64,000 nt of DNA from Escherichia coli. GTDB taxonomy: Bacteria > Pseudomonadota > Gammaproteobacteria > Enterobacterales > Enterobacteriaceae. Positions 6,080 to 6,754 of this stretch are shown in pieces (the first letter of the stretch is position 1; every line of letters begins with the position of its first letter). Both the position numbers and the translations under genes were made by a program. A model generated the notes under the pieces. It searched no databases and was not told the origin of the DNA. It worked only from the letters and a program-made list of their open reading frames with translations. The DNA is taken from the NCBI RefSeq assembly GCF_965641715.1, contig NZ_OZ282453.1; one strand, 5' to 3'.

Positions 6080-6106
6080 AATAAAAAACCCGCCGAAGCG
6101 GGTTAA
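6080..6106 (-). terminator. intrinsic terminator of hok mRNA
   Basis: Minus strand AACCCGCTTCGGCGGGTTTTTTAT downstream of hok. Confidence 0.5.
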
Positions 6107-6172
6107 GTGCGGGTGCGTTGAGGATGCCTGACACATCAGAGGTGGCGAGGGATTTCTCCCCCGCCAGGTCTC

Positions 6173-6328
6173 TTACTCCTCAGGTTCGTAAGCTGTGAAG
6201 ACAGCGACCTCCGTCTGGCCGGTTCGGATTCGTACCTCGCAGAGGTCTTTCCTCGTTACCAGTGCCGTCACAATGACGGTTAAACAGATGACGATCAGGG
6301 CGATTAACATCGCCTTTTGCTGCTTCAT
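6173..6328 (-). CDS. hok: Hok/Gef family type I toxin (membrane-depolarising peptide)
   Basis: 51 aa MKQQKAMLIALIVICLTVIVTALVTRKDLCEVRIRTGQTEVAVFTAYEPEE, canonical Hok/Gef sequence; ORF track shows an in-frame upstream extension (mok-like leader). Confidence 0.85.
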   Translation of the reverse strand: MKQQKAMLIALIVICLTVIVTALVTRKDLCEVRIRTGQTEVAVFTAYEPEE

Positions 6329-6754
6329 AGACTGCTCCTCCTTGCCTTTCGGCACGTAAGAGGCTAACCTATGTGTGTAGAGCATAGATATGGCCTCAGA
6401 TTAATGTTAAGCGTCTTGCAGGACGCGTAATGTTAACTGGGGCTTTTCTCTGTCTGCCTTACAGTGGCATGCCCGAGGCAGACAGCCTCAAGCACCCGCA
6501 GCTATTCTACTTAACTATCCTTTTCCCGCAAATCGTTTTATCCTCAACGCAAATTTCACCAATCCCCCCCCAACTCGTGTCCCTTACCCTCAGGCTGTTT
6601 CCCTCTTTACACAGAAGATAATTAATGTATTGTTTTTTACAAACAATCAGTTAAGAGCTATCTGTGGGTGGAGTCGCCTTGCGGTAGCTTTTCCTTTTAT
6701 GCATTGCACACATACATGCTCTAATATATTCCTATATATTCAAAAGGACTTTTC

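What the first reader, a model, noticed from the sequence alone, without database searches (positions are those of the whole stretch)
6080..6420. hok/sok-type type I toxin locus inside the prophage, next to the candidate exclusion cassette
The 51-aa peptide is a canonical Hok/Gef toxin with an in-frame mok-like leader and a downstream terminator. The antisense Sok RNA would be encoded on the plus strand around 6330..6420 but was not delineated. Its position beside the RexAB-like cassette suggests a cluster of defence or addiction cargo.
Basis: partly seen in the sequence, partly recalled or inferred. Interest (0 to 1): 0.4.

Follow-up and report, generated by a model that had tools for sequence, protein, structure and literature searches.

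The report
Intact hok/mok/sok toxin–antitoxin locus in prophage
This is a complete copy of a well-known small "host-killing" toxin gene (hok) with its antisense RNA antidote (sok), carried by a Rac-like lambdoid prophage of E. coli; it is common and ordinary, and the neighbouring "RexAB-like" genes show no detectable relation to RexAB.

Summary
On the minus strand there is a 51-aa Hok/Gef peptide (6328→6173), 100% identical to E. coli K-12 HokD. There is also an in-frame 70-codon mok frame (6385→6173) and an intrinsic terminator (6104→6087).

The locus is larger than reported. The hok mRNA starts at about 6497, from a promoter at 6531–6504, so the finder's box omits the 5' regulatory elements tac and ucb. 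All of the family's regulatory elements are present and unbroken: tac, a metastable hairpin, ucb, the mok Shine-Dalgarno, the Sok-target hairpin, dcb and fbi. Minimum-energy folds reproduce the closed (tac–fbi) and open (tac–ucb, SD–dcb) states.

Sok lies on the plus strand. Its promoter is at 6342–6370 and the RNA spans about 6377–6447.

The locus is 91% identical to hokW-sokW of phage 933W/Sp5, an experimentally shown type I toxin–antitoxin system. Similar DNA occurs in 4726 of 5426 complete E. coli genomes. Unlike K-12 hokD, this copy keeps its leader.

The "defence cluster" idea is not supported. The adjacent 310-aa and 184-aa genes match no RexA, Pfam or PADLOC model, and only 1 of 80 related phage loci shares this neighbour.

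Verdict: a known kind of element, low interest.

The parts
6504..6531 (-). hok promoter: -35 TTGCGG (6531-6526), 16-nt spacer, -10 TAGAAT (6509-6504), 6 nt before the +1 G at 6497
   Evidence: Coordinates. The -10 TAGAAT and its spacing to GGGTGCTTGAGG recur in most of the 73 IMG/VR loci that have the leader. The -35 hexamer falls below the threshold of the simple promoter scan. The assignment is inferred and no transcript was mapped.
6083..6497 (-). full-length hok mRNA, about 415 nt
   Evidence: The 5' end is position 1 of the Rfam RF01794 model. The 3' end is the terminator. The fold energy is -175.4 kcal/mol, z = -6.3 against shuffles.
6486..6497 (-). tac (translational activator element), GGGUGCUUGAGG, at the 5' end of the mRNA
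   Evidence: It pairs with 6123-6111 in the full-length minimum-energy fold. It pairs with ucb in the 1-360 fold. It is nearly invariant in 67 related mRNAs.
6466..6497 (-). metastable 5' hairpin of the nascent transcript (nt 1-32)
   Evidence: The fold of nt 1-50 pairs nt 1-13 with nt 19-32. The mechanism is the one described for R1 hok (PMC9841398).
6439..6445 (-). ucb (upstream complementary box, anti-SD), AAGCCCC
   Evidence: It pairs with the mok SD in the full-length fold and with tac in the truncated fold. These helices are 99-100% paired across 67 homologues.
6393..6397 (-). mok Shine-Dalgarno, GAGGC, 8 nt before the mok ATG
   Evidence: It is invariant in alignment A2.
6173..6385 (-). 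mok reading frame, 70 codons, in frame with hok
   Evidence: mokW/hokW in 933W and mokC/hokC in K-12 are annotated in the same in-frame arrangement.
6367..6389 (-). Sok-target hairpin holding the mok AUG (CUAUG...CAUAG); this is the most variable stretch of the RNA among relatives
   Evidence: The hairpin forms in the 1-360 and 1-140 folds. The entropy peak lies at columns 111-130. There are 17-22 alleles and the hairpin is kept in all of them.
6360..6364 (-). dcb (downstream complementary box), GCCUC
   Evidence: It pairs with the mok SD in the truncated fold. The helix is 100% paired in 67 sequences.
6173..6328 (-). hok coding sequence, 51 aa plus stop; SD GGAGG at 6341-6337
   Evidence: Pfam HOK_GEF. 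The peptide is identical to K-12 HokD. One hydrophobic segment spans residues 6-24.
6187..6190 (-). TACG motif at the Tyr47 codon, the TadA A-to-I editing site (Tyr to Cys) reported for K-12 hokD
   Evidence: Motif located. Editing of hokC, hokD and hokE at this aligned position is reported in PMC5630033. Editing of this copy was not tested.
6144..6165 (-). 3'-UTR stem-loop GGCGGGGGAGAAAUCCCUCGCC, the likely protective 3' end of the processed mRNA
   Evidence: Folds. The helix is 99.5% paired with G-U, A-U and G-C variation. Its role is inferred from R1 (PMC9841398).
6111..6123 (-). fbi (fold-back inhibitory element), CCUCAACGCACCC
   Evidence: It pairs with nt 1-12 in the minimum-energy fold. 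The helix is 99.5% paired across 67 homologues.
6083..6104 (-). intrinsic terminator of hok (stem 6104-6087, then a T-run)
6342..6370 (+). Sok promoter: -35 TTGCCT (6342-6347), 17-nt spacer, -10 TAACCT (6365-6370)
   Evidence: Coordinates. The sequence from -35 to -10 is identical to that of sokW. Primer YO-421, by my reading the one used to build the promoter-less sokW mutant, replaces the complement of this -10 box (PMC8621323).
6377..6447 (+). Sok antisense RNA, about 71 nt: a 15-nt single-stranded 5' tail, a long terminator hairpin and UUUU
   Evidence: The ends were transferred from the sokW annotation in AF125520. K-12 sokC overlaps mokC by the same 9 nt. The fold energy is -28.7 kcal/mol, z = -4.6. 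It is unique in the window.

Best explanation
This is a structurally intact hok/mok/sok type I toxin-antitoxin module of the hokD/hokW (prophage) subtype. It sits in the nin region of a Rac-like lambdoid prophage integrated at ttcA in E. coli.

The mechanism below is inferred from the anatomy and from the R1 and hokW paradigms. A weak constitutive promoter (6531-6504) makes a stable mRNA of about 415 nt. While nascent, its 5' tac element is held in a metastable hairpin. In the full-length RNA, tac pairs with fbi near the 3' end and ucb sequesters the mok Shine-Dalgarno, so the RNA neither is translated nor binds Sok. Slow 3' trimming removes fbi. The RNA then refolds: tac pairs with ucb and the mok SD pairs with dcb, so mok can be translated and the target hairpin is exposed.

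Sok is an unstable antisense RNA of about 71 nt, made from 6377 on the plus strand. In the lysogen, Sok pairs across the mok start, blocks mok translation and therefore the coupled hok translation, and marks the duplex for RNase III cleavage. When Sok supply stops, the processed mRNA pool is translated. This could happen on prophage induction, on transcription shut-off, or on loss of the element. Hok, with a single transmembrane helix, inserts in the inner membrane and depolarises or kills the cell.

Its most likely role is the one shown for hokW-sokW: helping host killing and phage release after induction. Stabilisation of the prophage is a secondary possibility.
For: - **Toxin.** Pfam HOK_GEF E=3e-23. 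The peptide is identical to K-12 HokD.
- **Leader.** Rfam RF01794 at 113 bits against a gathering score of 59, full length 1-157.
- **Folds.** The full-length minimum-energy fold pairs nt 1-12 with 375-387 (tac/fbi) and ucb with the mok SD, as the R1-type plasmid locus does. The 1-360 RNA switches to tac/ucb plus SD/dcb plus the target hairpin, and the 1-50 RNA forms the metastable hairpin. The z-score is -6.3 for the mRNA and -4.6 for Sok.
- **Conservation.** These helices are 99.5-100% paired in 67 distinct related mRNAs.
- **Sok promoter.** It is identical to that of sokW. Mutating the sokW promoter released HokW toxicity (PMC8621323).
- **No disruption.** No IS element or truncation is present. 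By contrast, K-12 hokD has relE in place of its leader, and K-12 hokC has IS186 20 nt past its stop codon.
- **Closest studied relative.** hokW-sokW is 90.8% identical. It was shown to be a type I TA whose toxin appears on RecA-dependent induction and doubles phage release.
Against: - Nothing here shows expression. The promoters are weak matches that the consensus scan did not call.
- The key helices are almost invariant in the relatives sampled, so they show conservation but no covariation.
- Truncated RNAs ending at 365 or 372 still fold into the closed form in silico. The switch appears only at 360 or fewer nt, and the true processing site is unknown.
- Chromosomal hok loci with intact sequence (hokA of E. 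coli C, hokB of K-12, hokC of ECOR24) were reported not to mediate post-segregational killing or to respond to rifampicin (summarised in bioRxiv 10.1101/2025.08.07.668861).
- hokW lies at a different place in its phage, at the right end rather than the nin region, so its biology may not transfer.
Confidence: 0.85

Rival explanations
1. The locus is intact in sequence but phenotypically silent. It is transcribed and fully repressed, or too weakly expressed, and is carried along with the nin region without conferring killing, stabilisation or any lysis benefit.
For: Several chromosomal hok loci with complete regulatory elements failed to give post-segregational killing or rifampicin activation (summary of Pedersen and Gerdes). 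The hok promoter has a poor -35 hexamer and was not called by the scan. The module travels with one dominant downstream context, 66 of 79 loci, which is compatible with hitch-hiking.
Against: The peptide is 100% conserved in at least 130 phage loci, and non-coding helices are maintained while neighbouring sequence varies. The near-identical hokW-sokW is active from its native prophage. R1 hok is lethal from a single chromosomal copy when Sok is removed (PMC9841398).
Confidence: 0.2
2. Its main role is abortive infection or exclusion of other phages. Host transcription shut-off by an infecting lytic phage depletes Sok and Hok kills the cell. It would act as part of a defence island together with the adjacent 310-aa/184-aa cassette.
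For: R1 hok-sok on a high-copy plasmid reduced T4 plating by 42% (cited in PMC8621323). The adjacent cassette is an AT-rich moron, 30-35% GC against about 50% around it, on the opposite strand, and encodes a protein with four hydrophobic segments.
Against: No PADLOC, Pfam, NCBIfam or PDB similarity was found for the cassette. The adjacency is seen in 1 of 80 related loci. A survey found no enrichment of hok near defence systems. hokW-sokW promoted rather than blocked phage production.
Confidence: 0.15
3. It is a decayed remnant of a hok locus, as the K-12 copies are.
For: K-12 hokD, which encodes the same peptide, is such a remnant.
Against: Every element is present and correctly spaced. There is no IS element, frameshift or truncation. 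The Rfam match is full length.
Confidence: 0.03

Closest known systems
hokW-mokW-sokW of Stx2 phage 933W / Sakai prophage Sp5 (AF125520; Takada et al. 2021, PMC8621323)
   Same: It is 90.8% identical over the locus. It has the same order of elements, the same in-frame 70-codon mok, an identical Sok promoter, the same 71-nt Sok with the long terminator hairpin, and the same tac and fbi sequences. Both are carried by lambdoid prophages.
   Different: The Hok C-terminus differs...FTAYEPEE here...FVDYESEK in HokW. The Sok-target loop allele differs. The 3' end differs: this copy has a canonical terminator hairpin and 933W diverges after fbi. The position in the phage differs: the nin region here, the right end of 933W.
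hokD (relF) of the Qin cryptic prophage, E. coli K-12
   Same: The 51-aa peptide is identical, and the coding sequence, 3' UTR, fbi and terminator are nearly identical. The downstream neighbours are the same kind (rem-like gene, DUF1367/YdfU, Q-like antiterminator).
   Different: In K-12, similarity stops about 20 nt upstream of the hok ATG, where relBE sits. K-12 therefore has no tac, ucb, mok or sok. This copy has all of them.
hok/sok (parB) of plasmid R1 and R1-type IncF plasmids
   Same: It shares the same family of peptide and mRNA leader (Pfam, Rfam). Its full-length fold shows the same long-range 5'-3' pairing. The Sok promoter sits at the same place, overlapping dcb and the hok SD region.
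   Different: DNA similarity is too low for blastn beyond short stretches. HokW and R1 Hok are 44% identical. The replicon and the presumed role differ: plasmid stabilisation there, prophage cargo here.
hokC/mokC/sokC (gef) of E. coli K-12
   Same: It has an in-frame mok, and Sok starts 9 nt inside mok.
   Different: K-12 hokC has IS186 20 nt after its stop codon. This locus is uninterrupted.
RexA/RexB of phage lambda (for the neighbouring cassette only)
   Same: It is a two-gene cassette with overlapping stop and start codons. It encodes a roughly 300-aa soluble protein followed by a small protein with four hydrophobic segments.
   Different: There is no sequence or fold similarity. It lies in the nin region, not beside the repressor gene.

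Membership tests
Hok/Gef toxin family (Pfam PF01848) | Peptide of about 50 aa with an N-terminal transmembrane helix that matches the HOK_GEF profile above the gathering score | tested here: met
   81.6 bits against a cutoff of 22, E=3e-23. One hydrophobic segment spans residues 6-24. The peptide is identical to K-12 HokD.
hok/sok type I TA locus | Conserved structured 5' leader of the hok mRNA | tested here: met
   Rfam RF01794 at 113 bits against a gathering score of 59, model positions 1-157 of 157, on the hok strand.
hok/sok type I TA locus | Long-range tac/fbi pairing of the 5' end with the 3' UTR in the full-length mRNA | tested here: met
   The minimum-energy fold pairs nt 1-12 with nt 375-387, as in the R1-type control. 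The helix is 99.5% paired in 67 homologues, but it is nearly invariant so there is no covariation.
hok/sok type I TA locus | The ucb/mok-SD pairing (closed state) can switch to tac/ucb plus mok-SD/dcb (open state) | tested here: met
   Folds of nt 1-416 versus nt 1-360. The helices are 99.6-100% paired in relatives. The switch depends on the assumed 3' end.
hok/sok type I TA locus | A mok reading frame with its own SD, starting upstream of hok and overlapping it | tested here: met
   ATG at 6385, SD GAGG 8 nt upstream, 70 codons in frame with hok.
hok/sok type I TA locus | A cis-antisense Sok gene with its own promoter and terminator, overlapping the mok start | tested here: met
   -35/-10 at 6342-6370, identical to sokW. 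The RNA at 6377-6447 has a 15-nt tail and a terminator hairpin, z = -4.6. This holds at the sequence level only.
hok/sok type I TA locus | Sok is expressed and unstable; the hok mRNA is processed at its 3' end; RNase III cleaves the duplex | not testable with these tools
   This needs Northern blots or RNA-seq and rnc mutants. It has been shown for R1 and in part for hokW-sokW.
hok/sok type I TA locus | Toxicity is released when Sok is removed | not testable with these tools
   The HokD peptide was reported toxic on overexpression. The native-context test has not been done for this copy.
RexAB exclusion system (neighbouring cassette 6755-8238) | The first protein is homologous to RexA in sequence or fold | tested here: not met
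   No Pfam, NCBIfam, PADLOC or PDB-sequence hit. The AlphaFold model (pLDDT 73) gave a best Foldseek PDB match of TM-score 0.22 to an unrelated protein.
RexAB exclusion system (neighbouring cassette 6755-8238) | The second protein is a small polytopic membrane protein | tested here: met
   The 184-aa protein has four hydrophobic segments by Kyte-Doolittle analysis. This is a generic feature and is not diagnostic.
RexAB exclusion system (neighbouring cassette 6755-8238) | Located in the immunity region and co-expressed with the repressor | tested here: not met
   It lies between the replication genes and the nin/Q region, about 5 kb from the repressor-like genes at about 13.0-13.9 kb.

The most novel reading that the evidence does not exclude
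The stretch covering the mok start, the loop of the Sok-target hairpin and the Sok 5' tail (window 6369-6392) is the most variable part of the RNA. It varies among phage loci that encode the very same Hok peptide: 17-22 alleles, with the hairpin and the SD/dcb stem always preserved. This could reflect diversifying selection that gives each prophage a private Sok/hok specificity. Under that reading, the several hok/sok copies in one E. coli genome (median 2, up to 10-11) would not protect against loss or induction of one another.
Probability: 0.25. Interest if true: 0.45.

Novelty: already known. Interest (0 to 1): 0.12.

Why it matters
It matters little in itself. It is one more intact copy of a very common and well-understood prophage-borne type I toxin-antitoxin module. 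It has three modest uses.

1. It shows what the ancestral, complete form of the K-12 hokD (relF) locus looks like, carrying the same peptide.
2. It warns that the Rfam family named "sok" is modelled on the hok-sense strand, so a hit marks the hok leader and not the antisense gene.
3. It corrects the idea that the neighbouring cassette is RexAB-like, or that the two form a conserved defence cluster.

Tried and rejected
1. **RexAB-like neighbour.** I tested it with Pfam, PADLOC, NCBIfam, PHROGs, PDB sequence search, and AlphaFold plus Foldseek. Only PHROG families of unknown function matched. The idea is rejected as unsupported.
2. **Conserved linkage of hok with that cassette.** I tested it on 80 IMG/VR loci and found it in only one, a 100% identical copy. 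Rejected.
3. **Covariation support for tac/fbi, tac/ucb and SD/dcb.** The helices are conserved but almost invariant in 67 close relatives. This gives no positive covariation evidence. The few compensatory changes lie in hairpin 2 and the Sok terminator hairpin.
4. **Do co-resident copies in one genome avoid sharing a recognition allele?** Of 16 within-genome pairs, 1 was identical. The permutation null expects about 1.5, P=0.54. The result is inconclusive.
5. **Consensus promoter scan.** It did not call either the hok or the Sok promoter. Both fall below its 4-of-6 threshold, and it listed other weak matches instead. The promoter assignments therefore rest on homology to sokW and on conservation.
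6. **The Rfam 'sok' hit on the minus strand.** I considered whether it marks a separate RNA gene and rejected this. The model ends in the hok SD and AUG, so it is the hok leader.
7. **Weak Rfam isrK hit on the hok 3' UTR.** It scored 30.5 bits, below the gathering score of 50, and I did not pursue it.
8. **Plasmid search in 'distant' mode.** It found R1-type loci only as short fragments. I obtained an R1-type reference by tblastn instead.

Full report
**Observation**

The minus strand of 6080-6420 carries a 51-codon ORF (ATG 6328, stop 6175-6173). It lies inside a 70-codon ORF that starts at ATG 6385 in the same frame. The product matches Pfam HOK_GEF at E=3e-23, 81.6 bits against a cutoff of 22. 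It also matches PHROG 251 'MokW-like host killing' at E=7.8e-33. A terminator-like hairpin with a T-run lies at 6104-6087.

**True extent of the locus**

- Rfam family RF01794 ('sok') matches 6323-6497 at 113 bits (gathering score 59), over the full model.
- The match is on the minus strand, the hok strand, and the model consensus ends in the hok Shine-Dalgarno and AUG. The family as built therefore describes the hok mRNA leader and not the antisense RNA.
- Model position 1 falls on G 6497. That base is preceded by TAGAAT (6509-6504) and TTGCGG (6531-6526). This -10 box and its spacing recur in most of the 73 related phage loci that have the leader.
- The locus therefore spans about 6083-6531. 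The finder's box omits the promoter and the first 77 nt of the mRNA.

**Regulatory anatomy (coordinates and the folds)**

| Element | Window coordinates | mRNA nt |
|---|---|---|
| tac, GGGUGCUUGAGG | 6497-6486 | 1-12 |
| ucb, AAGCCCC | 6445-6439 | 53-59 |
| mok SD, GAGGC | 6397-6393 | 101-105 |
| mok AUG | 6385 | 113-115 |
| target hairpin | 6389-6367 | 109-131 |
| dcb, GCCUC | 6364-6360 | 134-138 |
| hok SD, GGAGG | 6341-6337 | 157-161 |
| hok AUG | 6328 | 170-172 |
| 3'-UTR stem-loop | 6165-6144 | 333-354 |
| fbi, CCUCAACGCACCC | 6123-6111 | 375-387 |
| terminator | 6104-6087 | - |

The folds behave as follows:
- The minimum-energy fold of the full-length RNA pairs nt 1-12 with nt 375-387, and ucb with the mok SD.
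- An R1-type plasmid hok mRNA, folded the same way as a control, shows the same long-range pairing.
- The RNA truncated to 360 nt instead forms tac/ucb, mok-SD/dcb and the target hairpin.
- The first 50 nt form the metastable hairpin.
- Truncations at 365 and 372 nt stay closed, so the predicted switch depends on where processing stops. That site is unknown.
- The full-length fold is much more stable than shuffled sequences (z = -6.3).

These are the conformations described for R1 hok (PMC9841398).

**Sok**

On the plus strand, TTGCCT (6342-6347) and TAACCT (6365-6370) are separated by 17 nt. This stretch is identical to the corresponding part of phage 933W. In 933W, sokW is annotated so that it starts 9 nt inside mokW and is 71 nt long. 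K-12 sokC likewise starts 9 nt inside mokC.

Transferred to the window, this gives Sok at about 6377-6447. That RNA folds into a 15-nt single-stranded tail, a long hairpin and UUUU (-28.7 kcal/mol, z = -4.6). It occurs once in the window.

Primer YO-421, by my reading the one used to build the promoter-less sokW mutant, replaces the complement of this -10 box. That mutant released HokW toxicity (PMC8621323).

It misses the 3' arm of the terminator.

**Relatives**

- The peptide and 3' end are essentially those of K-12 hokD. In K-12, however, similarity ends about 20 nt upstream of the hok ATG, where relE lies.
- The window therefore holds a complete form of hokD. It also has no IS element, unlike K-12 hokC, where IS186 sits 20 nt after the stop codon.
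- The locus is 90.8% identical to hokW-mokW-sokW of 933W/Sp5.
- Similar DNA occurs in 4726 of 5426 complete E. coli genomes, 3818 of them with at least 80% coverage. The median is 2 places per genome and the maximum is 10.
- It also occurs in 102 phage records.
- IMG/VR holds hundreds of relatives, and the 80 best all encode the identical peptide.
- In an alignment of 67 distinct related mRNAs, the key helices are 99.5-100% paired. They barely vary, so this is conservation and not covariation.

**Context**

- The chromosomal part of the window is E. coli: 99.6% identity over 8 kb.
- The prophage is Rac-like and integrated next to ttcA, with intR at 20576-21811 and RalA at 20077-20255.
- hok lies in the nin region and points the same way as its downstream neighbours. 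These are a rem-like 57-aa ORF, a DUF1367/NinB-like gene, a DUF1364 gene and a Q-like antiterminator.
- This downstream context is shared by 66 of 79 related loci. The upstream side falls into 26 different contexts.

**The neighbouring cassette**

- The genes at 6755-7687 (310 aa) and 7684-8238 (184 aa) are on the opposite strand. They are AT-rich, 30-35% GC against about 50% around them.
- They match only PHROG families of unknown function. Nothing matches in Pfam, PADLOC, NCBIfam or PDB sequences.
- An AlphaFold model of the 310-aa protein (26-sequence alignment, pLDDT 73) found no RexA among solved structures. The best match had TM-score 0.22.
- The 184-aa protein has four hydrophobic segments. 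That is the only resemblance to RexB.
- Only one of the 80 related loci, a 100% identical copy, has this cassette upstream.
- A published survey found no enrichment of hok near defence systems, although hok is enriched in prophages.

The 'defence/addiction cluster' reading is therefore not supported. The cassette looks like one of many morons inserted at a variable junction.

**Mechanism and role**

- What is shown here is sequence integrity and predicted folding.
- What is inferred is expression, 3' processing, Sok instability, RNase III cleavage and killing.
- The closest experimental model is hokW-sokW. There, sokW RNA disappears after mitomycin C, HokW appears in a RecA-dependent way about an hour before endolysin, and deletion halves phage release.
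- No minus-strand terminator-like site was found between the upstream early genes and hok. Read-through of early transcription into the locus on induction is therefore possible. This is speculation.
- The main rival is that the locus is intact but silent, as reported for some chromosomal hok loci.

**Noticed in passing**

- The most variable stretch of the RNA among loci with the same peptide is the mok start / target-loop / Sok-tail region. It has 17-22 alleles and the hairpin is kept in all of them.
- A test of whether co-resident copies avoid sharing an allele was inconclusive: 1 of 16 pairs was identical, P=0.54.
- The Tyr47 codon keeps the TACG motif. At this aligned position TadA edits K-12 hokC, hokD and hokE mRNA to a Cys codon.

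**Verdict**

Its boundaries needed extension, and the proposed link to its neighbour does not hold.

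Noticed in passing
window 6369-6392 (minus strand); alignment A2 columns 107-134: Among phage loci encoding the identical Hok peptide, the region of the mok start, the Sok-target hairpin loop and the Sok 5' tail is the most variable part of the mRNA. It averages 0.70-0.72 bits per column, against 0.3 or less in most of the RNA. There are 17-22 alleles, and the hairpin and SD/dcb stem are kept in all of them. The mok frame is not always in frame with hok: 19-codon and 68-codon out-of-frame variants exist.
   Followed up: partly
window 6187-6190 (minus strand): The Tyr47 codon of hok is TAC followed by G. This is the TadA A-to-I editing motif reported to recode Tyr to Cys in K-12 hokC, hokD and hokE mRNA (PMC5630033), so it is a possible extra control on toxicity.
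   Followed up: partly
window 6323-6497 (minus strand): The Rfam family RF01794, named 'sok antitoxin', matches on the hok-sense strand and its consensus ends in the hok SD and AUG. Its hits mark the hok mRNA leader and not the Sok gene strand.
   Followed up: yes
window 6755-8238 (plus strand): This is an AT-rich (30-35% GC) two-gene cassette on the opposite strand. It encodes a 310-aa protein (PHROG 15676, homologues across Enterobacterales, no known domain or fold match) and a 184-aa protein with four hydrophobic segments (PHROG 15250). A terminator-like site lies at 8259-8274. It is a moron of unknown function.
   Followed up: partly
window 5749-5922 (minus strand): A 57-aa ORF lies just downstream of the hok terminator and matches PHROG 340. 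It sits at the position of rem in K-12 Qin, and a preprint describes Rem as acting as an antirepressor. A promoter-like site lies at 6031-6004.
   Followed up: no
window 6083-6164 (minus strand): The hok 3' UTR gives a weak match to the Salmonella prophage sRNA family isrK (30.5 bits, gathering score 50, E=1.5e-4 in a 901-nt search). This may be chance or a distant relation between 3'-UTR structures.
   Followed up: no
window 20077-20255, 24565-24682, 31548-31643, 2785-2856: Other Rfam hits in the window are RalA (antitoxin of RalR, in the same prophage), FnrS and McaS (chromosomal sRNAs), and a prophage tRNA between the Q-like gene and the lysis genes.
   Followed up: no
L012, L050, L056, L061, L065, L080 (IMG/VR): Of the 80 phage loci with the identical Hok peptide, 7-8 have no tac match upstream by the pattern search: 6 listed here lack it in both searches, L049 has a one-base-shortened tac, and one further locus was not identified. 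These may be truncated arrangements like K-12 hokD, but what replaces the leader was not examined.
   Followed up: no
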